Shown: positions 12,104 through 56,168, counted from the first letter of the stretch. The stretch is 64,000 bases of DNA from Candidatus Woesearchaeota archaeon (GCA_019322895.1 JAHWHZ010000001.1:459528-523527), one strand, 5' to 3'. Numbers and translations: made by a program. The notes: a model not told the origin generated them from the letters alone.

Positions 12104-12170
12104 TTTATCAATCCTCGTAAATTATAAAGAAATCTTTGCCTCTCAATTATATAAATTTTTCTATTATTAA

Positions 12171-13127: not shown

Positions 13128-13143
13128 GTTTTTAAATACTTTT

Positions 13144-39851: not shown

Positions 39852-40321
39852 AAAAAGCGCAGATGATAGGCCAGATATTTATTTTTGTAGTTGCTGCAAT
39901 AATTTTTATCCTTATCCTTATGTATGGGTATAAGGCAATCTCTAATTTTTTGCAGCGTTCTGAGCAGGTTGCATTGATTGATTTCAAGTCTGATTTAGAA
40001 TCTTCTGTAGAGGTCATCAAGAGGGATTATGGCAGTGTGAGAAAGCTTGAATTAAAGCTGCCAAAAAGATATACAGAGCTCTGCATAATTGATATAAACA
40101 ATTGCGAGCCGCTAAAGAAACAGAGGCCTTTGATGTATTCGACGTGTATTGCAGGCAGTGAGAATGTCATACTTGTTCCTAAGCAGGAAACTCCTATCTT
40201 TCTTCCAGACATAACTGTTTTAGGCGGCTACACTTGTGTTGATGTTGCCCACGGCAATGTTGTACTGGGCCTTAAGGGTCTTGGCAAGTCAACACAGATT
40301 TCAGGGTGGCCTGTTCCATAA
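39848..40321 (+). CDS. pilin-like protein with archaeal class III signal peptide
   Basis: MKKAQMIGQIFIFVVAAIIFILILM... The ATG overlaps the upstream stop (ATGA). Confidence 0.55.
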   Translation: MKKAQMIGQIFIFVVAAIIFILILMYGYKAISNFLQRSEQVALIDFKSDLESSVEVIKRDYGSVRKLELKLPKRYTELCIIDINNCEPLKKQRPLMYSTCIAGSENVILVPKQETPIFLPDITVLGGYTCVDVAHGNVVLGLKGLGKSTQISGWPVP

Positions 40322-41358
40322 TGAAAAAACGCGGTTTTGAGATGCAGTTTCACTGGATTTTTATTCTGATAGCTGGCGCTGTAATCCTTGCTTTCTTTTT
40401 TTCTGTAGTTGCCAAGCAAAAATCGCTTTCTGAGCAAAAGCTTTCCATAACCCTCTCAGAGAATATTGAAGCGGTTTTTTCTGGCGCAATTGAAAGCAAG
40501 GGAACTGCCCAGTTGCTTGCAATGCCTAAAGGGGGACTGTCTTTTTCCTGCTCAGAGGCTTGTGACTGTAATTTTTGGATTGATGACAAGGCAACTTCTT
40601 TCAGCGATAAGATCCTGTTTGCTCCCTCCTTGATTGAAGGCCAGGATGCTGTGGCCTGGTCAAATGAATGGAAGATGCCTTTTAGGATAACTAATTTCCT
40701 GTACATCACAAATCCTAATATCAAGTATTATCTTGTTTATGAGGCTGGCAAGAATGACCGCTTGTTTGATAGGATAAATAAGTCATTTCCACCTGGATTG
40801 AATGTGGCTGTTTTGAGAGACCCGAATGAAGTAGAGGATGTTCCTTATGAAGGTTATCCGGAGACTAAGTTTATATTTTTAGATGTGGTCAATCCTGAGA
40901 TTAACCTGATGGGCATGGACAGTGATTTCAAGAGAGAAGAGGTTTCTGCAATAAATATCCAGCCAAATGCAAATTCAATCACTTTTTACGAGAAAACGCC
41001 TAAAGAGATTGAATTTACATCCAAATCATCTCCTTTTGCAGGCGAGCCGTGGATATTTGCCGCAATATTCGCTGCAGATAAGCAGATGTATGATTGTGGC
41101 TTGCGGGCAGCTTTCCTTAAGCTGAGTCATGTTGCGCAGGTAATTTATGGCAGGGCAAAGATGATACAGGCCAACATAACCCAAATAAAACCTGAATGCA
41201 CATATTTGCTTGACAGTTTTGACGTGCTTATTGAAAGCTCAAAAAGTTTTGTAAATCAATTGGATTTTTCAAGTATTTCAGGCATAGCCCAGGCTGCTGA
41301 TGATATTGAGAGAGAAAACAAGAACATAATATTGTTATCCTGCCCAGAGATTTATTAA
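40321..41358 (+). CDS. pilin-like protein (class III signal peptide, 345 aa)
   Basis: MKKRG|FEMQFHWIFILIAGAVILAFFF. The start is set at ATG 40321, overlapping the upstream TAA by 1 nt. Confidence 0.55.
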   Translation: MKKRGFEMQFHWIFILIAGAVILAFFFSVVAKQKSLSEQKLSITLSENIEAVFSGAIESKGTAQLLAMPKGGLSFSCSEACDCNFWIDDKATSFSDKILFAPSLIEGQDAVAWSNEWKMPFRITNFLYITNPNIKYYLVYEAGKNDRLFDRINKSFPPGLNVAVLRDPNEVEDVPYEGYPETKFIFLDVVNPEINLMGMDSDFKREEVSAINIQPNANSITFYEKTPKEIEFTSKSSPFAGEPWIFAAIFAADKQMYDCGLRAAFLKLSHVAQVIYGRAKMIQANITQIKPECTYLLDSFDVLIESSKSFVNQLDFSSISGIAQAADDIERENKNIILLSCPEIY

Positions 41359-41359
41359 A

Positions 41360-41851
41360 ATGAGGCGAGCACAGATAAAGATGTTTGAAACAATGGCTGT
41401 GTTAGTGATATTCTTCTTTTTATTGGTCGGCGGTGCTGCTTTTTATTTTCAGATACAGAAAAGCAGCATAAAAAGAGATTTGGAGAGGCAGGAGCAGCTG
41501 CGTGCGTTTCAGGTTGTGCAGAAAGCGTTGTTTTTGCCAGAGCTTGACTGTTCTTTTGTGAGCATACAGAAAGATAATTGCTTTGATAAATTAAAAGTGA
41601 TTAATCTCCAAGAGCTTTTGAAGCAGGAAAAGTTTATGATTGATTATTTTAATGTGTTTGGTTTTTCCGAGATAAAGATAATGCAGCTTTATCCTGTTAA
41701 TGATACCTTTTCATATACTCTTTACCAGAACATTCCTGAAAAATATAAGTCCGTGATAAGCACGCAAAGCCCGATACTGCTGTTTGATGCAGTGCAGAAC
41801 AGGTATAATTTTGGTGTTGTTGAGGTTGATGTTTATGCAGAAGAGCAATAA
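41360..41851 (+). CDS. pilin-like protein (class III signal peptide)
   Basis: MRRAQIKMFETMAVLVIFFFLLVGG. Confidence 0.5.
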   Translation: MRRAQIKMFETMAVLVIFFFLLVGGAAFYFQIQKSSIKRDLERQEQLRAFQVVQKALFLPELDCSFVSIQKDNCFDKLKVINLQELLKQEKFMIDYFNVFGFSEIKIMQLYPVNDTFSYTLYQNIPEKYKSVISTQSPILLFDAVQNRYNFGVVEVDVYAEEQ

Positions 41852-42320
41852 GTCCCAGATGGAGATAATGGGTCTGGTAATTATAGTGATACTTGTTGCT
41901 ATTGGAATGCTTTTTGCAGTGCAGTTTTTGCTGAAAAAGCCTGCTGGAAGAGAGACTGCAGCTGTAAAGGAAAGCACGATTGCGGCAAATTTCCTTAACG
42001 CGATGCTTTCCACCACAACTGACTGCTATAACAGGAACATTCGCGAATTATTGCAGGACTGTGCTCTTACTGGCGGCACCACAAGATGCCCTGGCCAGAG
42101 AAACTCTTGTGATTATGCTGCAGACCAGATAAGAATAATGCTTGACAAGACATTGAGCACCTGGAACAAGGATTATTATTTCAGCATAAAAGGCGCTCCT
42201 GGTGTTGAGGCAATCTCTTTTGGCAATTCCTGCCCTGAATGTGAGAGAGAGGCAAAGATACATCCTGTTCCTGTCCGGCCTGGCTTTGAGATACAGCTTA
42301 CGCTTGAGATTTATAGTTAA
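41835..42320 (+). CDS. pilin-like protein (class III signal peptide), Cys-containing
   Basis: The start is set at ATG 41835 (MQKSNKSQMEIMGLVIIVILVAIGMLF). Four Cys in the globular part. Confidence 0.5.
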   Translation: MQKSNKSQMEIMGLVIIVILVAIGMLFAVQFLLKKPAGRETAAVKESTIAANFLNAMLSTTTDCYNRNIRELLQDCALTGGTTRCPGQRNSCDYAADQIRIMLDKTLSTWNKDYYFSIKGAPGVEAISFGNSCPECEREAKIHPVPVRPGFEIQLTLEIYS

Positions 42321-45095: not shown

Positions 45096-45227
45096 ATTAC
45101 TTGCTTAAACTTTGGAATATATAAGTTTTTCTATATTATATAACTATAAGGCAATATATAAGACTTAAGAAAAAAGTATATAATAATCAAAGCTTATAGT
45201 ATTATATTGTTTAGGAGGTGATATATA

Positions 45228-45692
45228 ATGCTTAAGAAAAAAGATCTGGTATTAACAGCTTACTTAAGGCAGAATTCGCGGGCATCCTTGACAATATTAT
45301 CACGCAAGACAGGGGTTCCTGTAAGCACAATATTTGACAGGCTCAAGACAAATAAGATAATTGTAAAAAACACTGCCTTGCTGGACTTCAGTAAGATGGG
45401 ATATGGCGCGCGGGCCACTATACTATTGCGCGCAAAAAAGAATGAAAAGCAGAATCTTAAAGATTTTTTGATGGCATCCTTTAATGTAAACTCTTTGTAT
45501 AAGGTAAATAATGGCTTTGATTTCATGTTTGAGTGTATTTTCAGGGATATAAAAGAGCTTGAGGAGTTTGTGGATGCTATTGATGAGAAATTCTCTATCA
45601 GGTCCAAGGAAATTCATTATATAATCGATGAAATCAAGAAAGAGACTTTTCTCAGCCAGCCAGAGCTTGTAGAGCTGGTATATGCCCAATAA
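45228..45692 (+). CDS. Lrp/AsnC-family transcription regulator
   Basis: 154 aa with an HTH (SRASLTILSRKTGVPVSTIFDRLK) plus a RAM domain. GGAGGTGA SD upstream. Confidence 0.75.
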   Translation: MLKKKDLVLTAYLRQNSRASLTILSRKTGVPVSTIFDRLKTNKIIVKNTALLDFSKMGYGARATILLRAKKNEKQNLKDFLMASFNVNSLYKVNNGFDFMFECIFRDIKELEEFVDAIDEKFSIRSKEIHYIIDEIKKETFLSQPELVELVYAQ

Positions 45693-45754: not shown

Positions 45755-46081
45755 ATGAGAAAAGCACAAGGATTGCCTATCACTACTATTATCATTGCTG
45801 CATTAGCACTAGTTGTGCTTGTAGTATTGTTTGCCATATTTACAGGCAGACTATCTATTTTTGGAAGAGGCATTTCCGAATGCCCTGGAATTTGTGTTGC
45901 CAAATATTCTGAAAGCGGTGCAACCACTAGTGGCGTGAAAACAGCAGATGCAACAGCTGCATGTCCTAATCCGCAACTGCAAAGGCCGCTGACAGGAACA
46001 TATATTGAAGTAGGACAGCCAGCTAACAGAAAAGCAGAAGATTTGGTTTTCTGCTCTAAGTGCTGCGTCTCCACAGTCTGA
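45755..46081 (+). CDS. small disulfide-rich pilin-like protein (candidate major pilin), paralog 1
   Basis: MRKAQG|LPITTIIIAALALVVLVVL class III signal, with an approximately 80-aa mature part containing 6 Cys. Confidence 0.55.
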   Translation: MRKAQGLPITTIIIAALALVVLVVLFAIFTGRLSIFGRGISECPGICVAKYSESGATTSGVKTADATAACPNPQLQRPLTGTYIEVGQPANRKAEDLVFCSKCCVSTV

Positions 46082-46236
46082 TGGTAGAGCTGAAGATTCC
46101 TTATTTGCAGGGCGTCACTCCTGCAAGACTTTTTACTTTATTGACTTTGATTGTTCTTTTGGTTATACTCATAACTAAATTCTTTGTTTTGAAAGAGCAT
46201 ATGAGCTTGATTCCGCCTTCTGTATTGCCTTAGGTT

Positions 46237-46296
46237 GCCAATACTGCCTTGCGAAGTTCTCAGATGAATATGCGGATTCTGATACCTCGGGAATAC
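46237..46296. repeat. intergenic repeat element, copy 46(+)
   Basis: GCCAATACTGCCTTGCGAAGTTCTCAGATGAATATGCGGATTCTGATACC. Collinear with copy B at 23015-23072. Confidence 0.7.
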
Positions 46297-46325
46297 TTCT
46301 TAATTATTTGTATGTGAAGTATTCC
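46290..46325. other. perfect 10-bp stem-loop (GGAATACTTC ... GAAGTATTCC) with 16-nt AT-rich loop
   Basis: Read directly: GGAATACTTCttaattatttgtatgtGAAGTATTCC. Confidence 0.7.
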
Positions 46326-46390
46326 GGATGGTGCTCAAGAACCCTTGGTTCTTGACAAATCTGGTTTGCAGGAGGCATCTAGTGCATAAC

Positions 46391-46505
46391 ACAGCGCAGC
46401 ATTGGCTTATGCATAGCACGCTTCGTTCTGCTTCTATTATCGCTTATGTCCAGATTTATGATAAGTGGAATATTGCTTAGATAACTTCGCTAGGTGCTAT
46501 GCATG
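46391..46505. repeat. intergenic repeat element, copy 46(-), inverted relative to the 46(+) copy
   Basis: AGCGCAGCATTGG...CGCTTCGTTCT...CCAGATTTATGATAAG...AACTTCGCTAGGTGC is collinear with 52713-52806. Together with 46237-46296 it forms about 25-bp imperfect terminal inverted repeats (GCGAAGTTCTCAGATGAATATGCGG vs the reverse complement GCGAAGTTATCTAAGCAATATTCC). Confidence 0.65.
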
Positions 46506-46553
46506 TATGTTCTGCCATAAAGTTTATATATGAGAATTAGATTTTATATCAGC

Positions 46554-46895
46554 ATGAAGAAAAGAGGCCAAGGATTGCCAATAACCACCATAATCATAGC
46601 TGCTCTTGCACTGATAGTTCTCGTGGTTCTTATTTTCATATTTTCAGGCAAAATAAGGGTTTTTAGCGGAGAGATGGTTAGCTGCACAAGCAAGGGGGGT
46701 TTTTGTACTTCAAAAGCTTGCGTATTTGGCTATCAATCAGAAATCAAGAATACAGATTGTCCTTCTGGCCAGAAATGTTGCCTTACAATTCTTGGCGCTC
46801 CTGCAGATTCTCCTTGCGCTAATGATGATGACTGTGCAAAAGGTTTAGAGTGTAAAAATAACAAGTGCACCGCAAAGACTGCAGCTAAAAAATAG
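46554..46895 (+). CDS. small disulfide-rich pilin-like protein (candidate major pilin), paralog 2
   Basis: MKKRGQG|LPITTIIIAALALIVLVVL has an N-terminus nearly identical to 45755. The mature part has 10 Cys (knottin-like spacing). The start is set at ATG 46554. Confidence 0.55.
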   Translation: MKKRGQGLPITTIIIAALALIVLVVLIFIFSGKIRVFSGEMVSCTSKGGFCTSKACVFGYQSEIKNTDCPSGQKCCLTILGAPADSPCANDDDCAKGLECKNNKCTAKTAAKK

Positions 46896-46952
46896 ACAAT
46901 ATTTCTTTTTTCACCAAAAACCTTTTATATATAATTCTTATTTTCTGAAGTA

Positions 46953-47060
46953 ATGAAAAAAAGAGGCGTGATTGAGCCAGAGATATTGATAGCAATAGTT
47001 TTGTCAGTCATTTTTCTCATAATCGCAATCTTGGTCTTGACAAGGAAGGGCATCATATGA
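46953..47060 (+). CDS. micro-ORF (35 aa) consisting only of a class III signal peptide plus TM helix
   Basis: MKKRGVIEPEILIAIVLSVIFLIIAILVLTRKGII. Its stop overlaps the next start (ATGA). Missed by the more than 60-aa ORF track. Confidence 0.3.
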   Translation: MKKRGVIEPEILIAIVLSVIFLIIAILVLTRKGII

Positions 47061-48025
47061 ACAAGAAAAGCCAGGCAGGAATCCCCACAAGCGTGCGTAT
47101 AATAGGCCTTGCAATAGCACTGTTAGCGCTTATACTTGTTTCAGGAGTGTTTGTTCAGTATATTTTTGGAGCTGTAAAGACAGGGGAATGCCAGTGGGAC
47201 CTGCTGTTCTCAGCCATCTCAACAGTGGCTGGCGGAGGCGCGATGGATATTCCTCCTGAATGCAAGGCAGAATACATCACCATAACAAAAAAAGATCTTG
47301 AAAAAGAGCTTGATACTGCTGCAGCAAGAATAAAAACATATGATTCAAATCCAGAAAAATATAAGAAGATACGCGCCGCAGGATTCCAGTATTACAAAAA
47401 TGAGCCAGAAAAGAATTACAGGGTTCAGATGGAATGGGCCTTGAACAAGATAGTTGCAGATAAGCTGCTTTCCTGCTGGAAAAAGGTATGGAAAGGAAGC
47501 CTGCCAATGTTTGATTATTGGTGGAAGCTTGTTGACTGGACCTGGTTTGGATTGAGTGAAGAAGATTATACCAAAAAGCAGTTAGAATATATTGATGAAC
47601 AATTTAATGCAGGAGTTTTAAAGATCTACGGCCCTCCTGCTTTCTGCATTATATGCTATCACTTGAATTTTGATAAGGATGTCAGGGGATTATTTCAAGA
47701 AGATATCAAATCCTTGAAGGTATGGATGGCAGGCAACAAGGCCCCGAATTCAGATAAAAGCTATCTTGAAGAACTGCTTGAAGGACAGACTTTTGAAAGC
47801 CCGCTGTATATCCCCCCATATGAATATAACATTCAAAAGCCAGTAGGGATTGTTTACAAAAGGCTTAATCCTCAGGCATTAAACGTGGTTAAAGACTGGA
47901 TTCTTAGCAACTTGGCTGGATATGAGAAAGCAAAGGCAGTGAATATTCTTGCTCTTGCAGATTATGATGTGGTAACTACTCCAGCTGGTAAAAATGGATT
48001 AGGGTGTTTTTATGTCATTGATTAA
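47057..48025 (+). CDS. pilin-like protein (class III signal peptide, 322 aa)
   Basis: MNKKSQAG|IPTSVRIIGLAIALLALILV. Confidence 0.5.
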   Translation: MNKKSQAGIPTSVRIIGLAIALLALILVSGVFVQYIFGAVKTGECQWDLLFSAISTVAGGGAMDIPPECKAEYITITKKDLEKELDTAAARIKTYDSNPEKYKKIRAAGFQYYKNEPEKNYRVQMEWALNKIVADKLLSCWKKVWKGSLPMFDYWWKLVDWTWFGLSEEDYTKKQLEYIDEQFNAGVLKIYGPPAFCIICYHLNFDKDVRGLFQEDIKSLKVWMAGNKAPNSDKSYLEELLEGQTFESPLYIPPYEYNIQKPVGIVYKRLNPQALNVVKDWILSNLAGYEKAKAVNILALADYDVVTTPAGKNGLGCFYVID

Positions 48026-48179
48026 GATGCAAAACAAGAAAGCAATGGAAATACCTGGATGGATTTATGTTGTAGGCTTGATAATCGGCTTGCTGGTCAT
48101 ATTGTTGATAATCTGGATTTCTGCAAAATCCGGCCAAAAGGCAACTGGTTTGCTGGATACCATCAAAGGATTACTATGA
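48012..48179 (+). CDS. micro-ORF (55 aa) with class III signal-peptide-like N-terminus
   Basis: MSLIKMQNKKA|MEIPGWIYVVGLIIGLLVILLIIW. Translationally coupled at both ends (14-nt overlap upstream, ATGA downstream). Confidence 0.3.
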   Translation: MSLIKMQNKKAMEIPGWIYVVGLIIGLLVILLIIWISAKSGQKATGLLDTIKGLL

Positions 48180-51100
48180 AAAAAAGAGGTGTAAGTGGGG
48201 CTTTTATGTGGGTTTCTATAGTTATAGGGCTCATTGTTATCTTGTCCATTGGAACAGTCCTTTACCAGGGAAGAGATTATCTCTCAGAAAAAATATTTGG
48301 AAAAAAATACATCTCTGCTGAAGAAAAAGAATTTGTTCCTTACGAAGTGGAGTTAGAAGGAGAAGTAAAGACAGCAGATGATTCTATGAAAGCTCTTGTT
48401 TGCGCTTTCAACAGTTTGGCTATTGAGAAAAAAGGCTGGCTCATTGAAGGAGTGTGTCCAGAAGGGTTTTATTCAAAAGAAGTAGAAGAGAAAAAGAAAA
48501 AAGAGGCAGAAGAGAAGAAAGCAGCAGAAGAAAAGAAAAAAGCAGAGGAAAAGAAAACAGAACCCACGCCTGCTCCAACAGGAGCAATGGTTTCAATAAC
48601 AGGCGCCGCAACTAAAGAGGATTGCGATGGTGCCTTGTATGGCCAGACTTGTGTTGAGTGCCGTGAAAGCGAGTTTGGCATGAAAACAATTACTTTGCCA
48701 GACAGCGAATATGATGCTACAAAAATGTTAGCTAAAGCTGCAGTTCAGTGCTGGAATGATTTTAAAGGTCCAAAAGGCAATAAAGGCGAAAAAAATATTC
48801 TTTGCAATAAGGTTGTCATACCAGGGACTGCACCTGGCTGGGTAATAACAAAAGAAGAGTTTAGAGAACGTCTAGAAAAATTTGAAGGAGAAGTAGGTTC
48901 TGACTTGGCAGGTCTTGGTACTGGAACACAGAATGTTGATTGGAAATTTGGCGAGGCAATTGTCTTAAATATTAAACAAGAATTTTATATCTGCGCTAAC
49001 GATGCTTACGATGCCAATCCGTTTGACGCAGATGAGATTTTCTTCACGCGAAATCTAAATGATTGTGAAGTTGAAACAAGAGGGCTTGCCGAAAAAGAAT
49101 TTACCTGCGAAATTAAAACTTTTGAGTTGCCGCAGGAGATTGGCAGCGACATCAGTCTTTTTAATTGGGCAGAAGAGTTCATTAACAAGTATAATGACCC
49201 GGAATATCTTGCGTATTACGAGTCTTTTCCAAGAGGAGAGGAAGCAGCATGGCATTTAGAAGAAGGCGATTTTATTGTTGATGTTATACTGTTCGGTGCA
49301 GTCATGAATACGTTGCCTGTGCTTGGAAAAGGTGTGCGCCAAGCTGGCGGATTATTTAGAAGAATATTCACTAAAAAAATTCTTGTGGAAGTGCCTGAAG
49401 ATATTGTTAAGAAAGCTTCTAAAAAAACCATAACAACAGTATTAGGGAAAACAGGCAAAGAGATTGGAACAGAACTCGGCGAACAAACTATAAAAGAACT
49501 GACAGATATGTTTGGCAAAGGCATGGAGCGCCAGCTAAAATCACAGATACTCTATGATAATATACTTAAAGAAGTGGGGGAAGATGCTGCAGAAACAGCC
49601 CGCCAGGCATTTCTCTCAAAATATTCTATCTATAAAGGAATGGGAAAGACAGACGACCAGATTGCAACTCTTCTGAAAAAAGAGATCCCAGAAGCAATTG
49701 GAAAGACACCTGATGAAGTCAGCGGACTAATCAAGAATGTGGATGACGTGATTAAGAAATCCCTGGCAGAGCTTAGCGAATCCGCTAGGAATAAGCAGAC
49801 TGCCAGGCAGTTTTTTACAAAATATCTCTTGAAAGAAGGCGGTGAAAGCCTCAATAAAGAAGCTATGGAAAATATATTAGCTACAGCCTTGACTAAAGAG
49901 ACATATGATAAGCTTGGCCCAGAAGCAGCAGAACAAATAATGCAGCGTTCCCTTTCATATACTGATGAAATTATTGATGTCACTAAAGGCACCGATGAAT
50001 TGTTAAAAACCCAGTCATTGATAGGCCGAACTTATGGTGCAGTTGTTGGCCAAGTTAATAAAGAATTCAACCTTTTTGCAAATATATTGAGCCAGCCAAA
50101 TAAAGATACCTTATCAAGATTTTTATTAGGAGTAACTCCCAAAGAAATTGGCGAAGCTGTTGCGCAAAAAGGAGGGGCATTAGGTGCTATCGGAGCAGCT
50201 GCAGCGCGTTATAATCCTATTCATATTTCAATAGGAACAGGAAAAATTGTTCCAATTCCTAGACCTTTGTTGGTACGTTCACTTGTTGGAACTGCATATA
50301 AGACTACGCGTACAGGCATTCGTTTTACCTCTGATGCTGCAGGGGCTGCATGGCATTCCAGGGCTGCGCGTTACACACTGGCATATCTCCTTGCAACGCA
50401 GATAGCTGAATCAGATGCAAAGAATGATAAATTAGGTTATAATGAGGAAAATACGCTTATCCTGCAAAAGCCTTATGATTTTGATGCTAAGGCAAAATAT
50501 TTTTTGTCAGATGAAACTAATAAGTATTACTTGAACTTGCACAAGTATCAGTATGGTGATGCGCGGTTCTTCCTTGCAAGTCCCTGCAAAGCAGACTTGA
50601 CAATACCTAAAACAGATTGTGATTGTAATATCTATTCTGGAGATTACATCTTGAAATCCAATAATCAGCCATTTGACCCTGCTTCTGTAAAATTCAAGAG
50701 CGATGACGCGATTCATACTGTGTATAAATATGATGAACTTTCAAAAGATGGTAAAAGAGCTGCAATGGATTATTGTTTAGTAAAAGACCAGGAGTTTGGT
50801 GTTTTATGCAACATATTTGTTATGAAGGATCCTGAAGCTTATGAAAAGTTTACAAAATATGTTTATAAGAATGTTTATAGCCCTGCAATTGATTTCATGC
50901 AAAAATATAAAGTAGATGAAGAAAAGATTGCTGATATCATTGAAAGAAAAGAAGGGGATGTATCGCTTACAATAGGCCACATAATTTCAGATGCTGGCGA
51001 AGAATTAAGGCCGCATTATGAATTTGGTGCTTTCTGCTTTTTTGCAGAAGGCGGTATTGGTCCTTGCTCAGTCAATATTCCTGGTGCGCTCACTGAGATG

Positions 51101-51700
51101 CTTGTAGAAACAAGAGCTCCTGAGCTTACATTAAGAAAAACTCCTTTGTCTTATGAAGAATTCAAAAAAGAGTTTGATAAGGTTATTGCAAGTGGTTATT
51201 ATGAGAATATTGCATTTTCAGTTTATCATAAACTGGGAGCGATTAGGAAAGGCGAAGGTATGTATTTCATGGATATGTATGACCCAAATGGATTCTTAGA
51301 TATTGCTACAAGACACACTTACTTAAATTACAATGTTGTTGAAGACAGCAAGATTGACAAAAAGAAGATTGCAAAGCTTTGTAATACTAGATTAGATGAG
51401 CGGGAGCCACACATAAAAAGTATGCTCGCAACAAAAGTATCTATTGCTTGTTTTAATGCCCAGCCAAGCATAGAAGGATATCCTGATTATAATAATGGCC
51501 ATAATTATTGCTTCAGCAGCGAGCATGCTGGAATTGAGACTGCCAAAGATATTGCCACAGGCATTTCTATTGCAATTGACTTTGGTGCAGGAATCATAAG
51601 TGGCGGCTTGGCAGAAGCGCCTGTAGCAGCTCTTACTGGCCTTGGTTCTGCATGGTTTGCTCATGAAATGGATAAAAAGAAATTCTGGCCAAATCATTAA
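48176..51700 (+). CDS. giant (1175 aa) pilin-like surface protein with Lys/Glu-rich repeat
   Basis: The start is set at ATG 48176 (MKKRG|VSGAFMWVSIVIGLIVILSIG). EKKKKEAEEKKAAEEKKKAEEKK is encoded by an approximately 85-nt pure polypurine tract. The remainder has no recognisable domain. Confidence 0.55.
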   Translation: MKKRGVSGAFMWVSIVIGLIVILSIGTVLYQGRDYLSEKIFGKKYISAEEKEFVPYEVELEGEVKTADDSMKALVCAFNSLAIEKKGWLIEGVCPEGFYSKEVEEKKKKEAEEKKAAEEKKKAEEKKTEPTPAPTGAMVSITGAATKEDCDGALYGQTCVECRESEFGMKTITLPDSEYDATKMLAKAAVQCWNDFKGPKGNKGEKNILCNKVVIPGTAPGWVITKEEFRERLEKFEGEVGSDLAGLGTGTQNVDWKFGEAIVLNIKQEFYICANDAYDANPFDADEIFFTRNLNDCEVETRGLAEKEFTCEIKTFELPQEIGSDISLFNWAEEFINKYNDPEYLAYYESFPRGEEAAWHLEEGDFIVDVILFGAVMNTLPVLGKGVRQAGGLFRRIFTKKILVEVPEDIVKKASKKTITTVLGKTGKEIGTELGEQTIKELTDMFGKGMERQLKSQILYDNILKEVGEDAAETARQAFLSKYSIYKGMGKTDDQIATLLKKEIPEAIGKTPDEVSGLIKNVDDVIKKSLAELSESARNKQTARQFFTKYLLKEGGESLNKEAMENILATALTKETYDKLGPEAAEQIMQRSLSYTDEIIDVTKGTDELLKTQSLIGRTYGAVVGQVNKEFNLFANILSQPNKDTLSRFLLGVTPKEIGEAVAQKGGALGAIGAAAARYNPIHISIGTGKIVPIPRPLLVRSLVGTAYKTTRTGIRFTSDAAGAAWHSRAARYTLAYLLATQIAESDAKNDKLGYNEENTLILQKPYDFDAKAKYFLSDETNKYYLNLHKYQYGDARFFLASPCKADLTIPKTDCDCNIYSGDYILKSNNQPFDPASVKFKSDDAIHTVYKYDELSKDGKRAAMDYCLVKDQEFGVLCNIFVMKDPEAYEKFTKYVYKNVYSPAIDFMQKYKVDEEKIADIIERKEGDVSLTIGHIISDAGEELRPHYEFGAFCFFAEGGIGPCSVNIPGALTEMLVETRAPELTLRKTPLSYEEFKKEFDKVIASGYYENIAFSVYHKLGAIRKGEGMYFMDMYDPNGFLDIATRHTYLNYNVVEDSKIDKKKIAKLCNTRLDEREPHIKSMLATKVSIACFNAQPSIEGYPDYNNGHNYCFSSEHAGIETAKDIATGISIAIDFGAGIISGGLAEAPVAALTGLGSAWFAHEMDKKKFWPNH

Positions 51701-52308
51701 CTTAATGACATCATCGTTCTTCCAGGAGCATGTTCTTTAGTTACATCTCCTACAAGTATTCCAAATGTTCTTATTCTTGCATCATCTGAAAATCTTTCTG
51801 CATCATCTATTATCTGGTCATGATACATTCCTGAATCTATCTCTTTGAATTCAAAAGGTCGCATCTTTGTGTACATCACTCCCCATTGAATGTTTGTGAA
51901 ATTCATTTGCTCTTTCCAGTCCTCATCAAGAAATATGTCAACAATCCACTGGCCGTCCTCTCTTTTCTCTGTCATGAAGCCTTCCATAATGCCGTCATCT
52001 GGGGTCATTTCAGTTGTTATTCTTATTTTGACTTCACCATCTTCAACAAATTGGTTTGTGAATTGCTGGCCTTTGTAATATCCTTCTAATTCAAATACAG
52101 TGCTTATCTCTGTATCTCTGTATTGCAGTCCCATGGAATCCATGAACATTCTTCTGCCTGTCGCTTTATCTATGTCTATTGTGCTGTCCTCCACCCAGGT
52201 CTCTGGCTCTTCAGGAGAATATGGCTTTGGCCTGGTTGATATATAGATTGATACTAAAAGAAGTATGAGTGTGATTATTATTCCTATTATCACCACTTTT
52301 TTTTCCAT
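51697..52308 (-). CDS. membrane-anchored hypothetical protein
   Basis: 203 aa with an N-terminal TM (VVIIGIIITLILLLVSIYI). It is the only minus-strand gene inside the pilin-like cluster and is convergent with the giant gene. Confidence 0.45.
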   Translation of the reverse strand: MEKKVVIIGIIITLILLLVSIYISTRPKPYSPEEPETWVEDSTIDIDKATGRRMFMDSMGLQYRDTEISTVFELEGYYKGQQFTNQFVEDGEVKIRITTEMTPDDGIMEGFMTEKREDGQWIVDIFLDEDWKEQMNFTNIQWGVMYTKMRPFEFKEIDSGMYHDQIIDDAERFSDDARIRTFGILVGDVTKEHAPGRTMMSLS

Positions 52309-52381
52309 GCCTTGCTTTATCTTATATGTTTATTTAAACTTTTTGGAAATATTTATATAGGTGTAAGCTTCTTTTATTTTT

Positions 52382-52711
52382 ATGAAAAAAAGAGCTGTTC
52401 AATTGTCTGTGCAGACAATGATTATTGTAGCTCTTGGCTTGATTGTTTTGCTTGTCTTGATTTTTCTTATCAGAGGCCAGATTCAGAAAGGTGCTGGACA
52501 GTATTTTGATATTGGCACGAAAATCGGCAAAGAGGCAGAGCTTGAGAAATGCCAGGGCGGATTCTTTACTACAAAACAATGTGCCACAAACTGCATAAAG
52601 GATCCTAAGCTGGATGAGAATTATTATTGGGAGGATATTGGCCCAAAAGACTGCAAGGCTCCTACGCCGGTATGCTGCCAAAGAGGAGATAAAAAAGCTT
52701 CTATAAAATGA
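52382..52711 (+). CDS. small Cys-containing pilin-like protein
   Basis: MKKRA|VQLSVQTMIIVALGLIVLLVLIFLI, with 6 Cys in the mature part. Confidence 0.5.
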   Translation: MKKRAVQLSVQTMIIVALGLIVLLVLIFLIRGQIQKGAGQYFDIGTKIGKEAELEKCQGGFFTTKQCATNCIKDPKLDENYYWEDIGPKDCKAPTPVCCQRGDKKASIK

Positions 52712-52712
52712 T

Positions 52713-52806
52713 GCAATGCTGCGCTTCGTTCTTATGCTGAAACCGCCTGTTACCTAGATTTATCAGAAATCACTCTTAACATTAAAGACTTCGCAAGGCA
52801 GCATTT
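52713..52806. repeat. intergenic repeat element, copy 52 (minus orientation relative to copy D)
   Basis: GCAATGCTGCGCTTCGTTCT...CTAGATTTATCAGAAATC...GACTTCGCAAGGCAGCATTTGC. Its reverse complement begins AAATGCTGCCTTGCGAAGT. It starts 1 nt after the upstream stop and ends 6 nt before a TATA-like TTTAAAAAT. Confidence 0.7.
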
Positions 52807-52858
52807 GCACGTTTAAAAATAAGAAACTTTTAAATAACAATTATGCTAATTCTTTATT

Positions 52859-53380
52859 ATGTCAAAAAAAGGGGCAGTAGCATTAGAATACTTGGTTGAT
52901 TTAATTCCAAGAATAATAATATTTGTAGGGCTTCTGGCTGCATTGGCTGTTTTGTTTAATGTTATAGTAAAGCAATCAGCAACAACTCCTGCTGAAGATG
53001 ACTTGAACAGGGTTTTTGAAAAAATAAAGCAATTGCAGCCATACAGAGCAGAAAAAGTGTTTACAACAGGCGATGATTATACATTAGTCTTGTACGGACA
53101 GGAGCATATTGATCTTCCTGAGCAGTGCAGCAAAGCAGCATGCTTGTGTGTTACAGATGCAAAAGGAAAAACATCATGTAAAAGACTTACTGATGTGAGC
53201 AAGCAGTGCGCCACCTCAAAATGCGCCGCAAGCCCGATGTGTTTTGATCCTATAAGCTCAAATAAAGTTTATATCAGGGGAACCGGCACGGTCCGAGAGC
53301 CAATTTACATTTGCAGGCACTGCACAGAATTAATGATTACAGATTCAGAAGCATTATGTAAAGGACATGCAGCAAAATGA
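52859..53380 (+). CDS. pilin-like protein, Cys-rich
   Basis: MSKKG|AVALEYLVDLIPRIIIFVGLLAALAVLF is a classic archaeal prepilin N-terminus, with 12 Cys. Confidence 0.55.
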   Translation: MSKKGAVALEYLVDLIPRIIIFVGLLAALAVLFNVIVKQSATTPAEDDLNRVFEKIKQLQPYRAEKVFTTGDDYTLVLYGQEHIDLPEQCSKAACLCVTDAKGKTSCKRLTDVSKQCATSKCAASPMCFDPISSNKVYIRGTGTVREPIYICRHCTELMITDSEALCKGHAAK

Positions 53381-54480
53381 TTTCTAAAAAAGGAACAATA
53401 GTGGACCTTGTCTTAATGCCTACTTTCACGACAATAATTGTTCTTGGCTTTATTTTGCTGAGCATCCTTGCTACAATCAAAGGCCTGCATGGTGATTTGC
53501 AGCCGGAAAAAGCATCAACTGCAATAAATTCAGGACTGCTAACAATAGGATTGCATGATCTTACAGGAAATATTGATTATATCTACGGCAACAGGAAGAA
53601 TTTCAGCTTTGATTTCCAGGACAATAAAATATTGGTTTACACAAAGAAAAAAGACAAGTCAGATGCAGTAACTTATGCTTTTGCAGAAGACGGCTCTTTA
53701 GGCAGGCTTACATTCATTCCAAAAACCCTTAATTTCACCAAAAAAACAATACGTGAGCTTCATTTTGTCAAGCAGGGCAATGTTGTTTTTGTGGACAGCC
53801 CTATTGTTAATGATAAATTCCGGGCAAATCTTGATTTGCTGGAGTGCTCAAGAGAAAAGACAACAGCACTAAAAAAAGATATAATTATAGATCCATCTCT
53901 TGGCTGGGACGCAAACCTTGAGAAAGAGGGTGTTCCTGCCGGCGAAAAAGGTTATATGAATCACAGACTGCAGATAACAGAGTCTGATGTTAATAGGATT
54001 ATTGCAGCAAGGCTTTTTGGCTATGGCAAGGACTTTTTTGCTGAAAAAGCACAGCACACAAGAAGCTTATCGCAGGATTCAAAGGTTGACTTAAATGAAA
54101 AAATAAACAAGGTACAGAAAAGCAAGGGAAACGCAGTAATCTCACTGCGCCTTGGCAGCTATGCTGATACAGATTTCAATCCAGTTATTGCTTATATCAA
54201 TGGAGAATCAAATGACATTAAGGCAAGCAGGAAACTTGCCTGCCTTATCCTTAATGCACTCTCAAGCAAGCTTCCTGAAATCACTGATATTGCGATTGTT
54301 CCTGTCAGCATAAGCCAGCTTGATAGATTTTCAGGAAATGACCCAAAAAGAGTGCTGCTAAAGGAGAAGATAGGATTGCAGTTAGTCATAGGCAATGTCC
54401 AGATAGAAAATAAGAATATGATTGTTGAAAAACAAGATGACATTGCAAGAGCAATATACGATGGCATTAAGGCTTATTAA
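53377..54480 (+). CDS. pilin-like protein (367 aa)
   Basis: MISKKG|TIVDLVLMPTFTTIIVLGFILLSIL. ATGA overlap with the upstream gene. Confidence 0.5.
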   Translation: MISKKGTIVDLVLMPTFTTIIVLGFILLSILATIKGLHGDLQPEKASTAINSGLLTIGLHDLTGNIDYIYGNRKNFSFDFQDNKILVYTKKKDKSDAVTYAFAEDGSLGRLTFIPKTLNFTKKTIRELHFVKQGNVVFVDSPIVNDKFRANLDLLECSREKTTALKKDIIIDPSLGWDANLEKEGVPAGEKGYMNHRLQITESDVNRIIAARLFGYGKDFFAEKAQHTRSLSQDSKVDLNEKINKVQKSKGNAVISLRLGSYADTDFNPVIAYINGESNDIKASRKLACLILNALSSKLPEITDIAIVPVSISQLDRFSGNDPKRVLLKEKIGLQLVIGNVQIENKNMIVEKQDDIARAIYDGIKAY

Positions 54481-54943
54481 AAACAAGAAAGGCGCGAAGC
54501 TTCATAATTTTCTGTATTTGATACTTTATGTAATCCTTACTTTTATTGTGGTTCTTTTGCTGGTGCAGATTCCTGAGAAAATGTTTAAAGCAAGGATGGA
54601 GCAGGGATATTTTCCTCAAACTGTAAACCAGGACAGGATAAGCACCATGTTTGCTTACAAAAATCCCTATTCTGGAAGATTAGACTTGCTAAAAGTTTCT
54701 TCAGCCAACATGATTCAAAACAAGACAGCAAAGAATCTTCTCAGCTTTCCTGAAGAAGAGGAAGTGGCATTATTTGTTTCATTAGACAATAAAAAGTCTT
54801 ATTATGACAGGAAATTTTACAAAAGAGCCAAGCCATTGGTTCCTGTAAGATATGTCAGCTTGCTAAATACGCGCAAGGTCCAGGCGCAGGATGACAAGTC
54901 CTGGAAAACATTAACAATAGAGCAGGTTTTCAGGAGAACATGA
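54461..54943 (+). CDS. pilin-like protein
   Basis: The start is set at ATG 54461 (MALRLIKNKKG|AKLHNFLYLILYVILTFIVVLLLV). Confidence 0.45.
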   Translation: MALRLIKNKKGAKLHNFLYLILYVILTFIVVLLLVQIPEKMFKARMEQGYFPQTVNQDRISTMFAYKNPYSGRLDLLKVSSANMIQNKTAKNLLSFPEEEEVALFVSLDNKKSYYDRKFYKRAKPLVPVRYVSLLNTRKVQAQDDKSWKTLTIEQVFRRT

Positions 54944-55338
54944 ATAAAAAAGGAGATATCAGGCCGGCACTTTACTTGTTTGCAATAATTGGCATTGGAT
55001 TTCTTTTTATCTTGTTTTATATCTGGCAGGGCGCTGCGTATGAGGCAGGCAAGGAAATAATAATTATCTCAGAAGAAGTGCACAAGAATCCGATGCTTAC
55101 AAAACTGCTTAGTTACAATGTAGATTCTGGCCGGACAATAGGTGATGCAATTGCATACGATGAATTAAGCAAAGCCTGCGTAGCTGCTAAAAAAATAATG
55201 GACAAGGAGAAATTCATCCTTTCCTTGGATGGAGTTGATTTTTGCTCTAGTGAGAAAGGGCCTGAAAAGCCTGCAAAGATAAAAGCACTTATCCCTGCTG
55301 AAGATAATCAGATAAAAGAGGTTGTTTTAGAAATATGA
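54940..55338 (+). CDS. pilin-like protein
   Basis: MNKKG|DIRPALYLFAIIGIGFLFILF. ATGA overlap. Confidence 0.5.
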   Translation: MNKKGDIRPALYLFAIIGIGFLFILFYIWQGAAYEAGKEIIIISEEVHKNPMLTKLLSYNVDSGRTIGDAIAYDELSKACVAAKKIMDKEKFILSLDGVDFCSSEKGPEKPAKIKALIPAEDNQIKEVVLEI

Positions 55339-56168
55339 GAAGATTATTGAAGAACAAGAAAGGGTTTAACTGGGCCTTCTTGATGCTGGGCGTAGTGTTG
55401 ATCTGCCTTGTTTACTTGTTTTTCCAGCTTAATTCAAAACTAGCAAGCTTATCAATTATAGGTCCAAATCAGATGCAGGTAATCAATGCAAAAAAGCAGT
55501 CAAGTGATGTATTCTTCTATCTCGATCAAGCAAGCAGGCTTTCTGCCTGCAATGCAATATATGATTTAGGTGAAAAAGGAGGGTTTGCAAGCAATATTGC
55601 GTGCAACAAGCCGCCTTTCATAGGCGTGATAGATACGCCGCACACATACTGGAATGCAGGAGATGAGAAATGCTATGAAAACATAAATTTCTATGCAGAA
55701 TTTGAAAAGTTGTTCAAGCAGCATTTCATTAATTATCTCAGGATTTACAATGCTTTTCCTGCTGCAGACATAGATATTGATCCTTTTAATTATGAATTCA
55801 TGATTACAGATGACTTGATTGTTGGTTCTGCAATAAAGAATGCAGAAATGTCATTTGTTTCTTTGGATGCAGGATCATTAAGCAAGTATGTTTTCAAGCC
55901 TTCTTTTGCAATTGATTTTAAGACAGGAATAAATGATTATTTCAAGACAGGCGAGGCAGTTGACAAGTTGCTTGACTGTGACAAGCCAATGGCACAATGC
56001 ATCAATGATTTGAATACTCCTGGCCTGTCCTGGCATTTTACGCAGTCCAGCATGCCTGGCATTTATTTGTTTGAAGTGACGCAGAACAGTATAAACTGCA
56101 GGTTTGCCGGGGCAAAGCCTAAAATCAAGTTTGCTTTGCAGAAGATGCCGCCTGTTCCAGGGCCTTGA
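55335..56168 (+). CDS. pilin-like protein
   Basis: MRRLLKNKKG|FNWAFLMLGVVLICLVYLFF. ATGA overlap. Confidence 0.5.
   Translation: MRRLLKNKKGFNWAFLMLGVVLICLVYLFFQLNSKLASLSIIGPNQMQVINAKKQSSDVFFYLDQASRLSACNAIYDLGEKGGFASNIACNKPPFIGVIDTPHTYWNAGDEKCYENINFYAEFEKLFKQHFINYLRIYNAFPAADIDIDPFNYEFMITDDLIVGSAIKNAEMSFVSLDAGSLSKYVFKPSFAIDFKTGINDYFKTGEAVDKLLDCDKPMAQCINDLNTPGLSWHFTQSSMPGIYLFEVTQNSINCRFAGAKPKIKFALQKMPPVPGP

What the first reader, a model, noticed from the sequence alone, without database searches (positions are those of the whole stretch)
48176..51700. 1175-aa protein with prepilin-type N-terminus and no recognisable domains: candidate tip adhesin
A class III signal on a protein this large is unusual, since archaeal pilins are typically under 200 aa. 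Apart from a Lys/Glu repeat encoded by an approximately 85-nt all-purine tract (48478-48560), I recognise no known domain. A giant pilin-like protein co-encoded with many small ones is the layout expected for a filament-tip adhesin.
Basis: inference. Interest (0 to 1): 0.6.

Follow-up and report, generated by a model that had tools for sequence, protein, structure and literature searches.

The report
Giant pilus-locus membrane protein of DPANN archaea
This gene encodes a 1,174-residue surface membrane protein with a pilin-type N-terminus and no known fold; it is the signature member of an undescribed family that tiny symbiotic (DPANN) archaea keep inside their pilus gene clusters, but it looks more like a membrane-held part of the apparatus with exchangeable outer modules than a simple filament-tip adhesin.

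Summary
The ORF is real: 48176-51700 on the + strand, 1,174 aa. It comes from a Candidatus Woesearchaeota genome.

- **N-terminus.** MKKRG|VSGAF plus a 20-residue hydrophobic stretch meets the published sequence criteria for an archaeal class III (prepilin) signal. The motif is conserved across the family.
- **Domains and folds.** Pfam, NCBIfam, PHROGs and PADLOC find nothing. A confident AlphaFold model (pLDDT 73) matches no solved or viral structure.
- **Lys/Glu tract.** It is 93% purine, not all-purine. It is an imperfect 18-nt repeat of about four units. It is predicted as a rigid single helix, and a related strain has exactly one unit fewer, in frame. This is length variation, not phase variation.
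- **Family.** At least 264 sequence clusters, found in DPANN archaea. The gene sits in a conserved pilin-rich cluster. In some lineages it lies directly beside the pilus ATPase and platform genes, and there a 400-aa "mini" version keeps every core motif.
- **Topology clues.** Covarying cysteine pairs show that both Cys-rich domains are extracellular. Two further conserved hydrophobic segments and an invariant C-terminal WPxH argue against a protein carried out on a filament tip.
- **Strain variation.** Recombination has replaced the central and C-terminal modules between close strains.

The parts
48176..51700 (+). Whole ORF, 1,174 aa plus stop. Identical to NCBI 'hypothetical protein KY346_03050', Candidatus Woesearchaeota archaeon.
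48176..48190 (+). Class-III-type signal MKKRG (Arg at -2, Gly at -1); putative prepilin-peptidase site after Gly5.
   Evidence: Sequence; criteria from PMC4371748; family enrichment 88/123.
48191..48265 (+). aa 6-30: short polar spacer VSGAF plus the H-domain / first membrane helix MWVSIVIGLIVILSIGTVL.
   Evidence: Kyte-Doolittle 2.56 in the query; family mean 2.41.
48326..48475 (+). aa 51-100: conserved EFVPY motif and a high-confidence helix carrying the Cys76-Cys94 pair.
48476..48556 (+). aa 101-127: Lys/Glu tract. Imperfect 18-nt repeat of about four units (48484-48556), predicted as an isolated helix (ER/K single-alpha-helix type spacer). One unit shorter in L001/L050.
48599..49267 (+). 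aa 142-364: N-terminal alpha/beta ectodomain. Covarying Cys pairs 150-159, 162-311, 192-210, 273-297. Motifs FELPQ (49121-49135) and YYESFP (49214-49231), and W359.
49268..49330 (+). aa 365-385: second hydrophobic segment FIVDVILFGAVMNTLPVLG. Acidic flank before, strongly basic flank after.
   Evidence: low pLDDT
49331..50155 (+). aa 386-660: basic linker plus Cys-free all-helical central domain. Replaced by recombination relative to L001 (dS 1.9).
50156..50425 (+). aa 661-750: conserved basic block. Two beta-hairpins and a long helix 720-748 with invariant W726, R732, Y733. Kept at background divergence (dS 0.43).
50426..51535 (+). aa 751-1120: C-terminal ectodomain. RFFLASPCK motif (50564-50590). 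Covarying or invariant Cys pairs 804-1112, 815-1092, 817-1069, 867-878, 954-964. Hypervariable between strains.
51536..51697 (+). aa 1121-1174: Gly/Ala-rich hydrophobic helix hairpin with conserved AIDxG, then a basic tail ending in the invariant WP-x-H (WPNH, 51686-51697).
48012..48179 (+). 55-aa helix-only pilin-like ORF (NKKA|MEIPGW plus H-domain). Its stop overlaps the target's ATG. Conserved at this position in at least 13 loci.
47057..48025 (+). 322-aa class-III-signal protein with invariant Cys residues (family c2). Found upstream of the giant in 27 loci.
51697..52308 (-). 203-aa protein whose N-terminus (MEKK directly followed by the hydrophobic core) I read as a plain signal anchor without a class III motif (family c1). 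Always immediately after the giant (29 loci, on either strand). It diverges together with the giant's C-terminus.
52382..56168 (+). Downstream conserved class-III-signal genes: a 109-aa pilin-like protein, a 173-aa protein, a 367-aa Amidase_3 homolog, and proteins of 168, 132 and 277 aa.
35181..42320 (+). Upstream conserved sub-cluster: a 1,556-aa protein with a Sec-type-looking N-terminus and Ig-like domains, plus four minor-pilin-like genes.
45755..46895 (+). Two small (~110 aa) pilin-like genes (KA|QGLPITTIIIAALAL...).

Best explanation
**What it is.** The gene encodes the signature subunit of an undescribed, DPANN-wide accessory module of a type IV filament (archaeal pilus) system.

**Shown by the analysis:**
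- It has an archaeal class-III-type signal followed by a pilin-like hydrophobic helix.
- It has two ectodomains stabilised by covarying disulfide pairs.
- A Lys/Glu single-helix spacer varies by whole 6-residue units between strains.
- It has a Cys-free helical central domain.
- It has two further conserved hydrophobic segments and an invariant C-terminal WPxH.
- It is always encoded with a 322-aa class-III protein, a ~50-aa helix-only pilin and a ~205-aa signal-anchor protein, inside a pilin-rich cluster.
- In some lineages the gene sits directly after the pilus ATPase and a platform-like gene.
- Mini versions of 390-550 aa keep all the core motifs.

**Inferred mechanism.**
1. The protein is inserted by Sec.
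2. It is probably trimmed by the prepilin peptidase.
3. It stays in the archaeon's own membrane, held by its N-terminal helix and by the middle and C-terminal hydrophobic segments.
4. There it forms, with its three constant partners, a membrane-anchored complex at or near the pilus base.
5. The lineage-specific insertions (the N ectodomain on its helical spacer, the central helical domain and the C-domain) project outward.
6. These insertions are the parts exchanged by recombination between strains, which suggests they contact something variable: a host surface, a virus, or a partner protein.

**Unresolved.** Whether the central domain is cytoplasmic (a polytopic in/out/in/out topology) or external is not settled.
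For: - **Class III motif.** Conserved in the family. It differs from the N-termini of non-cluster proteins in the same window.
- **Family size and range.** 264 representatives, 117 with E <= 1e-10. 44 genome loci, labelled Woesearchaeota, Nanoarchaeota, Aenigmatarchaeota and Nanohaloarchaea.
- **Conserved neighbourhood.** Giant in 33 loci, c1 in 29, c2 in 27, the amidase-like gene in 18, and others. Synteny with the closest relatives holds.
- **Link to pilus machinery.** In L005 the order is T2SSE (55.7 bits), a platform-like protein, a paralog, the giant, then c1. In Aenigmatarchaeota loci T2SSE and T2SSF lie within about 3 kb of the mini homologs.
- **Mini homologs.** They keep the class-III N-terminus, YYEAFP plus the hydrophobic segment, the ASPCK..CxC motif, N-x-C, and the C-terminal hairpin with WPxH.
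- **Cysteine covariation.** phi up to 1.0. The Cys count is even in 105/108 members for the N region and 103/108 for the C region.
- **Extra hydrophobic segments.** Conserved, with an acidic-before/basic-after asymmetry of -3.0 versus +3.2. They have low pLDDT, like the first membrane helix.
- **Position of the tail.** A subfamily has four co-occurring Cys that link the tail to the aa 661-723 region.
- **Mosaic divergence.** Genome background is 92% nucleotide identity, against about 79% or unalignable across the giant's C-terminus and c1. dS is 0.5 / 1.9 / 0.43 / saturated along the gene.
- **No known fold.**
Against: - No experiment bears on this protein. Cleavage, localisation and partners are all inferred.
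- No pilus ATPase, platform or prepilin peptidase gene was found in the 64-kb window, nor within 10 kb in the loci labelled Woesearchaeota.
- Only the first helix is hydrophobic enough to be an unambiguous membrane span. By my hand estimate on the Hessa biological scale, the other segments are marginal.
- No convincing third span exists for the polytopic model: the family-mean peak at aa 698-716 is only 0.82.
- Recombinational replacement of the central domain fits an exposed domain better than a cytoplasmic one.
- pTM 0.70 suggests that the domains pack together. I could not inspect coordinates or PAE.
- Hypervariable modules are equally what a tip adhesin would show.
Confidence: 0.45

Rival explanations
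1. Filament-tip modular pilin or adhesin. After signal cleavage the N-terminal helix is built into the pilus, and the roughly 1,100-residue remainder is displayed at the tip, where it binds the host. The other hydrophobic segments are buried in the fold.
For: - Conserved class III motif.
- Disulfide-rich ectodomains.
- The rigid ER/K spacer varies in length.
- The central and C-terminal modules were replaced by recombination between strains.
- The gene is co-encoded with many small pilins.
- The four-Cys subfamily is compatible with the whole protein, tail included, lying outside the cell.
- Large modular pilins exist in bacteria (PMC8179133, listed).
Against: - Two extra hydrophobic segments and the WPxH tail are conserved over DPANN-wide distances, with a positive-inside-like charge asymmetry.
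- The mini homologs consist of little more than the membrane-proximal core.
- No adhesin module or pilin fold was detected.
- A separate gene set (a large Ig-like protein plus four minor-pilin-like genes) in the same cluster fits the tip role better.
Confidence: 0.25
2. A general cell-envelope protein of DPANN archaea (a wall or S-layer-associated anchor) that uses a pilin-type signal only for membrane insertion. It would have no functional tie to any filament.
For: - No ATPase or platform gene lies nearby in the window or in the loci labelled Woesearchaeota.
- A neighbouring gene encodes a cell-wall amidase homolog.
- Class III signals are known on non-filament proteins such as Sulfolobus sugar-binding proteins (PMC3387779).
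Against: - The gene lies directly beside T2SSE and a platform-like gene in L005, and the mini homologs lie beside T2SSE/T2SSF in Aenigmatarchaeota.
- It is constantly associated with small pilin-like genes, including a helix-only pilin.
Confidence: 0.12
3. A host-membrane insertion or fusion device. The Gly/Ala-rich hydrophobic hairpins (aa 365-385 and 1121-1165) would be stored on the symbiont surface and inserted into the host membrane on contact, helping to form the cytoplasmic bridge seen in DPANN-host pairs.
For: - The hydrophobic segments are Gly/Ala-rich, only marginally hydrophobic, and not confidently packed in the model.
- The family is restricted to host-dependent DPANN lineages.
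- The exposed modules are hypervariable.
- The fold is novel.
Against: - This is purely inferential.
- No structural similarity to any solved fusion or pore-forming protein was found.
- The charge asymmetry around aa 365-385 fits a resident span in the archaeon's own membrane.
Confidence: 0.08

Closest known systems
Archaeal class III signal peptide substrates (type IV pilin-like proteins processed by PibD/FlaK/EppA), including large non-pilin substrates such as Sulfolobus sugar-binding proteins of the bindosome
   Same: Charged residue at -2, Gly at -1, and a cleavage motif that precedes a roughly 20-residue hydrophobic domain (RG|VS; compare RA|VS and KG|QV in PMC4371748). Encoded among other such proteins and, in relatives, beside a T2SSE ATPase.
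   Different: About 6-10 times larger than pilins. It has two additional conserved hydrophobic segments and a conserved C-terminal WPxH. No pilin or solute-binding fold was found. Processing is untested.
Bacterial modular or large minor pilins and tip proteins (S. sanguinis PilB/PilC, ETEC CofB, V. cholerae TcpB, GspK) and PilY1-type tip adhesins
   Same: A large protein in a pilus locus, with a pilin-type N-terminus (the modular pilins) and an exposed, variable C-terminal part.
   Different: No vWA, lectin, beta-propeller or other known module. Extra membrane-active segments are present. The conserved core behaves like a machine part. It is archaeal, and no sequence or structural homology was detected.
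Epd-type (TFF system 1) pilus clusters of methanogens and DPANN archaea, with helix-only pilins and many accessory class-III proteins (bioRxiv 10.64898/2026.04.22.720090)
   Same: Many pilin-like genes; cleavage motifs with Gln at +1 in the neighbours (KA|Q, KS|Q); a helix-only mini pilin; accessory proteins of unknown role; large adhesin-like proteins in the loci.
   Different: This family is not named in the sections of that preprint I read. The ATPase and platform genes are not in the window. Membership of system 1 was not tested.
ER/K single alpha-helix (SAH) spacers
   Same: The Glu/Lys-rich aa 101-127 tract is predicted as an isolated helix with pLDDT about 90. Its length changes in whole repeat units.
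   Different: Short (about 27 residues). Present in only about 30-40% of family members. Not tested biophysically.

Membership tests
Archaeal class III signal peptide / type IV pilin-like proteins | G/A/S at -1 and a charged residue at -2, with the processing site before the hydrophobic domain | tested here: met
   MKKR-G|VSGAF plus the H-domain. Criteria from PMC4371748. 88/123 family members have G/A after the last K/R. The pattern is absent from non-cluster N-termini.
Archaeal class III signal peptide / type IV pilin-like proteins | Hydrophobic H-domain of about 20 residues at the N-terminus | tested here: met
   Kyte-Doolittle 2.56 for aa 11-29; family mean 2.41.
Archaeal class III signal peptide / type IV pilin-like proteins | Cleavage by a prepilin peptidase (PibD/FlaK/EppA) | not testable with these tools
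   This needs N-terminal proteomics or an in vitro cleavage assay. No peptidase gene was seen in the window.
Archaeal class III signal peptide / type IV pilin-like proteins | Genomic association with a TFF ATPase (T2SSE) and a platform protein (T2SSF) | tested here: inconclusive
   Not present in the window or in the flanks of loci labelled Woesearchaeota. Present next to family members in L005 and in Aenigmatarchaeota loci.
Archaeal class III signal peptide / type IV pilin-like proteins | Pilin fold: the N-terminal helix continues into and packs on a beta-sheet or Ig-like head | tested here: not met
Filament-tip adhesins (PilY1/PilC; modular minor pilins) | A recognisable adhesive module (vWA, lectin, beta-propeller, Ig-like) | tested here: not met
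Filament-tip adhesins (modular minor pilins) | The only membrane segment is the N-terminal pilin helix, so the protein can be extracted into the filament | tested here: inconclusive
   Two further conserved hydrophobic segments are present, but their hydrophobicity is marginal. No dedicated topology predictor or coordinates were available.
TFF platform proteins (PilC/FlaJ, T2SSF) | T2SSF domain repeats in a polytopic protein | tested here: not met
   No Pfam T2SSF match.
Archaeosortase substrates (PGF-CTERM and relatives) | C-terminal motif, then a membrane helix, then a basic tail | tested here: not met
   The order here is hydrophobic hairpin, then basic residues, then WPNH at the extreme C-terminus. 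There is no PGF motif (the family definition is from my own knowledge).
ER/K single alpha-helix | Alternating E and K/R runs predicted as an isolated stable helix | tested here: met
   aa 101-127 is KEVEEKKKKEAEEKKAAEEKKKAEEKK. Helix 101-122 has pLDDT 89-92. Stability was not measured.

The most novel reading that the evidence does not exclude
The giant and its three constant partners form a DPANN-specific, pilus-derived contact apparatus. On contact, its Gly/Ala-rich hydrophobic hairpins insert into the host membrane, making it a candidate for the long-sought machinery that opens the symbiont-host cytoplasmic bridge. The recombining ectodomain modules would set host specificity.
Probability: 0.08. 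Interest if true: 0.9.

Novelty: new variant of a known kind. Interest (0 to 1): 0.55.

Why it matters
DPANN archaea depend on physical contact with hosts, yet the proteins that make this contact are almost unknown.

- This analysis defines a large, unannotated protein family that no Pfam model covers and that has no known fold. In the genome scan it was found in MAGs labelled as several DPANN phyla.
- It fixes the family inside a conserved cluster of about 14 genes related to type IV filaments.
- It shows that two modules of the protein are swapped between near-identical strains.

Together these give concrete, testable targets for work on DPANN attachment in the few available co-cultures: the giant, its 322-aa, 55-aa and 203-aa partners, and the invariant motifs. 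The result also warns that pilin-type signals in these genomes mark a whole apparatus rather than filament subunits alone.

Tried and rejected
**Searches that gave nothing**
- Pfam, NCBIfam, PHROGs and PADLOC on the protein, and Pfam on 25 long relatives: no domain.
- PDB sequence profile: only chance helical matches.
- afdb50 was not available.
- The second and third homologous-protein searches with alignments returned nothing new, apparently because of the word-index step. Homologs came from the exhaustive representative search instead.
- The search for related loci with the 37-sequence alignment failed. It worked with a 12-sequence alignment.
- The metagenome scan for more Lys/Glu-tract alleles found only the L001 strain again (99.97% identical) and two chance hits.
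- Literature searches found no description of this family.

**Methods that failed or had limits**
- The first AlphaFold run with 4 sequences was useless (pLDDT 37).

**Ideas rejected**
- Phase variation: the tract is an 18-nt in-frame repeat, not a homopolymer.
- A model with the central domain outside and the C-terminal tail in the cytoplasm: in a subfamily, tail cysteines covary with cysteines at aa ~661 and ~723.
- PGF-CTERM-type sorting: the order of elements is wrong.
- T2SSF platform identity: no Pfam match.


Full report
**1. The observation**

The window carries an ORF at 48176-51700 on the + strand: 1,174 codons plus a stop. The mechanical ORF starts at 48059, but the ATG at 48176 is the credible start:
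- It overlaps the stop of a 55-aa upstream ORF (ATGA).
- The same arrangement holds in two orthologous loci.
- Codons 1-10 differ from the closest ortholog only at two synonymous third positions.
- The N-terminal motif is conserved in the family.

The identical NCBI protein is 'hypothetical protein KY346_03050' of a Candidatus Woesearchaeota archaeon, on a 697-kb contig. It is annotated from Met11, which cuts off the signal and is probably a miscall.

The rest of the window is archaeal housekeeping: eRF1, Phe-tRNA synthetase, RFC, RPA, a RecA/Rad51-type recombinase (by synteny with the annotated L001 gene) and others.

**2. The N-terminus**

MKKRG|VSGAF followed by MWVSIVIGLIVILSIGTVL has Arg at -2 and Gly at -1, and the motif lies in front of the hydrophobic domain. 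These are the sequence criteria published for archaeal prepilin-peptidase substrates (PMC4371748; PMC3387779). Listed processing sites such as RA|VS and KG|QV are close matches.

Across 123 family members with a clear N-terminal helix, 88 have Gly or Ala directly after the last Lys/Arg. Proteins outside the cluster in the same window have a different N-terminal pattern, with Lys/Arg abutting the hydrophobic core; several end in Cys-containing stretches that I read as lipoprotein signals. The 203-aa neighbour also lacks the motif.

The prepilin-type N-terminus is therefore a real, selected feature. Whether it is cleaved cannot be decided here.

**3. No known domain or fold**

- Pfam, NCBIfam, PHROGs and PADLOC give nothing.
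- 25 longer relatives also have no Pfam domain.
- A PDB profile search gives only chance helical matches.
- With a 37-sequence alignment AlphaFold2 gives a usable model: mean pLDDT 73.4, pTM 0.70. The 4-sequence run was useless.

There is no sign of an intracellular enzyme fold, a pilin head or a known adhesin module.

**4. Anatomy**

| Residues | Feature |
|---|---|
| 1-30 | Signal and first helix |
| 51-100 | Conserved EFVPY motif and a high-confidence helix with the Cys76-Cys94 pair |
| 101-127 | Lys/Glu tract |
| 128-141 | Thr/Pro linker |
| 142-364 | Alpha/beta ectodomain ending in the nearly invariant FELPQ and YYESFP motifs and W359 |
| 365-385 | Second hydrophobic segment |
| 386-660 | Basic linker and a Cys-free all-helical domain |
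| 661-750 | Conserved basic block with a long helix (W726, R732, Y733 invariant among close relatives) |
| 751-1120 | Second ectodomain with the RFFLASPCK motif |
| 1121-1165 | Gly/Ala-rich hydrophobic helix hairpin with a conserved AIDxG |
| 1171-1174 | Basic tail ending in WPNH; the Trp-Pro is invariant |

**5. The Lys/Glu tract**

- 48478-48560 is 92.8% purine, not all-purine. The longest pure run is 23 nt. It is still the only stretch of the window above 90% purine over 85 nt.
- It is an imperfect 18-nt repeat of about four units.
- The ortholog in L001 (and L050, the same strain at 99.97% identity) lacks exactly one unit, in frame.
- The tract is present in only about 30-40% of the family.
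- It is modelled as an isolated helix with pLDDT about 90.

I read it as an ER/K-type rigid spacer whose length drifts by whole units. It is not a phase-variation switch.

**6. The family**

An exhaustive profile-free search of 1.84 billion representatives finds 264 relatives at E <= 1e-3 and 117 at E <= 1e-10, mostly 900-1,300 aa. Three conserved cores lie at query residues about 305-430, 730-860 and 1046-1174.

A scan of one genome per species finds 44 loci. Their records are labelled Woesearchaeota, Nanoarchaeota, Aenigmatarchaeota, Nanohaloarchaea and Nanobdellati. Some third-party assemblies are labelled 'uncultured Methanosarcinales' and one is labelled Thermoplasmatota. These show the same synteny, and I regard the labels as doubtful.

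**7. Genomic context**

I clustered the ORFs of 47 loci plus the window. The conserved gene order is:
1. A large protein with Ig-like domains and an N-terminus that I read as a Sec-type signal, followed by four small class-III proteins.
2. Small pilins.
3. A ~320-aa class-III protein.
4. A ~50-aa helix-only pilin.
5. The giant.
6. A ~205-aa signal-anchor protein, on either strand.
7. A ~105-aa pilin, then a ~165-aa protein.
8. A ~360-aa Amidase_3 homolog.
9. Two ~150-aa proteins, then a 277-978-aa protein.
10. RPA (housekeeping).

The giant occurs in 33 loci, the 205-aa partner in 29 and the 320-aa partner in 27.

The window has no pilus ATPase, platform or peptidase gene. Related loci do:
- In L005 the order is a T2SSE ATPase (55.7 bits against a 24.9-bit cut-off), a platform-like protein, an 881-aa paralog, the giant, then the 205-aa partner.
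- In Aenigmatarchaeota loci, T2SSE and T2SSF lie within about 3 kb of 390-550-aa 'mini' homologs.
- The minis keep the class-III N-terminus, YYEAFP plus a hydrophobic segment, ASPCK..CxC, the N-x-C motif and the C-terminal hairpin with WPxH.

The conserved core is therefore small and membrane-proximal. The giant's bulk consists of lineage-specific insertions.

**8. Where the parts sit**

*Cysteine evidence.* In a 108-member alignment the cysteines covary in pairs: 150-159, 273-297, 192-210, 76-94, 162-311, 815-1092 (phi 0.95), 817-1069 (phi 1.0), 867-878 and 954-964. Cys804 and Cys1112 are invariant. The Cys count is even in 105/108 members for the N region and 103/108 for the C region. The central region has none in 86/108. 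This is the signature of disulfide pairs, so both Cys-rich domains are extracytoplasmic.

*For a polytopic in/out/in/out topology:*
- The flanks of aa 365-385 are acidic before (-3.0) and basic after (+3.2).
- The stretch before helix 720-748 is basic (+2.8).
- Conserved charged residues sit inside the weakly hydrophobic helices: D369, R732, D1135.

*Against it:*
- No convincing third span exists (family-mean peak 0.82).
- Only the first helix is strongly hydrophobic by my hand estimate.
- The central domain has itself been replaced by recombination between strains.

*A further constraint.* A subfamily has four co-occurring extra cysteines at about aa 661, 723 and 1168 (CGxWPxH) and just beyond the C-terminus. 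The tail and the aa 661-723 block must therefore be on the same side of the membrane. This excludes a model with the central domain outside and the tail inside.

The topology remains open between 'polytopic' and 'all outside with membrane-associated hairpins'.

**9. Strain-level mosaicism**

Against L001 the flanks are 92% identical in nucleotides. Region 46513-52709 is about 79% identical, and 50620-51440 cannot be aligned.

| Residues of the giant | dS versus L001 |
|---|---|
| 1-350 | 0.5 |
| 351-650 | 1.9 |
| 651-750 | 0.43 |
| 751-1120 | saturated |

dN/dS is about 0.1-0.3 wherever it can be measured. Two modules have been replaced by distant alleles while the blocks between them stayed at background divergence. 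This is recombinational cassette exchange rather than point-mutation positive selection. The adjacent 203-aa partner lies in the same divergent island, which suggests it binds the C-terminal domain.

**10. Interpretation**

The tip-adhesin idea is partly right. The protein is a pilus-locus, class-III-signal, exposed and variable protein. Five points favour a membrane-retained accessory or anchor subunit carrying outward-facing variable modules (confidence 0.45):
- The conserved extra hydrophobic segments.
- The invariant C-terminal tail.
- The mini homologs beside the ATPase and platform genes.
- The constant four-gene module.
- A separate gene set in the same cluster (a large Ig-like protein plus four minor-pilin-like genes) that looks more like a tip complex.

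Alternatives and my confidence in each:
- True tip pilin: 0.25.
- Filament-independent envelope protein: 0.12.
- Host-membrane insertion device: 0.08.

**11. Novelty**

In the searches I ran, the family is unannotated, no Pfam model covers it and no paper describes it. The kind of thing, an accessory class-III-signal protein of an archaeal type IV filament locus, is known. The architecture, fold and DPANN-wide conservation are new. I rate it a new variant of a known kind, with interest 0.55.

Noticed in passing
window 53377-54480 (+); L035, L041, L034, L024, L006, L037, L039: This is a class-III-signal protein with an Amidase_3 (N-acetylmuramoyl-L-alanine amidase) domain in an archaeon; the family profile hits solved bacterial amidases at E = 8e-13. 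The Zn/catalytic motifs DPGHG, SxH and LExG are intact in several loci. They are lost in the window and L001 copies (DPSLG, SLRLG, QLVIG), so this copy is probably a non-catalytic wall-binding or structural version.
   Followed up: partly
window 48012-48179 (+): This is a 55-aa ORF consisting of a class III motif (NKKA|MEIPGW), one hydrophobic helix and a short tail. Its stop overlaps the giant's start codon. A 45-73-aa equivalent occupies the same position in at least 13 loci. It resembles the helix-only Epd/Tad-type pilins.
   Followed up: partly
window 35181-42320 (+): A 1,556-aa protein with Ig-like domains (Big_13, Big_3_3) and an N-terminus that I read as a Sec-type signal is followed by four small class-III-signal proteins starting at 39848, 40318, 41360 and 41835. 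The set is conserved as a block in 11-13 loci. The layout resembles an adhesin plus a minor-pilin priming set.
   Followed up: partly
window 46513-52709 versus L001: This is a divergence island: about 79% nucleotide identity, with 50620-51440 unalignable, inside flanks that are 92% identical. It covers a pilin gene, the 322-aa gene, the giant and the 203-aa gene. Synonymous divergence within the giant is mosaic, which indicates recombination.
   Followed up: yes
window 48176-48205: The public annotation of the identical protein starts at Met11 (1164 aa) and so removes the class III motif. Overlap with the upstream stop, synonymous-only differences in codons 1-10 and family conservation all favour the ATG at 48176.
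   Followed up: yes
window 48176-51697: The 1,174 residues contain no N-x-S/T glycosylation sequon. By my rough estimate from 46 Asn, about 5 would be expected.
   Followed up: no
window 42351-45692: An APH-like kinase (618 aa), an AbrB/MazE-domain protein (304 aa, minus strand) and an Lrp/AsnC regulator (154 aa) sit between the two pilin sub-clusters. The last two recur at the same place in L001, L035 and L041, and a 618-672-aa ORF sits in the kinase's position in L001 and L041. They are possible regulators of the apparatus.
   Followed up: no
window 11123-14064 (-): Three tandem paralog-like ORFs of ~306-326 aa have N-termini that look like lipoprotein signals (MKK plus a hydrophobic stretch ending in Cys) and no Pfam match. 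Next to them, at 14061-16725, are a 502-aa multi-pass protein and a 388-aa protein with a class-III-like start (MKKRA|DG).
   Followed up: no
L005 9137-11779 and 11889-15779: An 881-aa protein and the 1,297-aa giant homolog lie side by side and share an almost identical N-terminal helix. They sit directly downstream of a T2SSE ATPase and a platform-like gene.
   Followed up: partly
family members such as P0004, P0021, P0022, P0035, P0036, P0043, P0059: This subfamily has four extra cysteines that always occur together: at about query aa 661, 723 and 1168 (CGxWPxH) and in a short extension after the C-terminus. They form either two disulfides or a metal site, tying the C-terminal tail to the conserved basic block.
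   Followed up: partly
window 29636-32782 (+): A 1,048-aa protein with a Sec-type-looking N-terminus and a Laminin_G_3 (concanavalin-like lectin) domain lies at the upstream edge of the surface-protein region. Its only PHROG matches are to large virion structural proteins, through that same domain.
   Followed up: no
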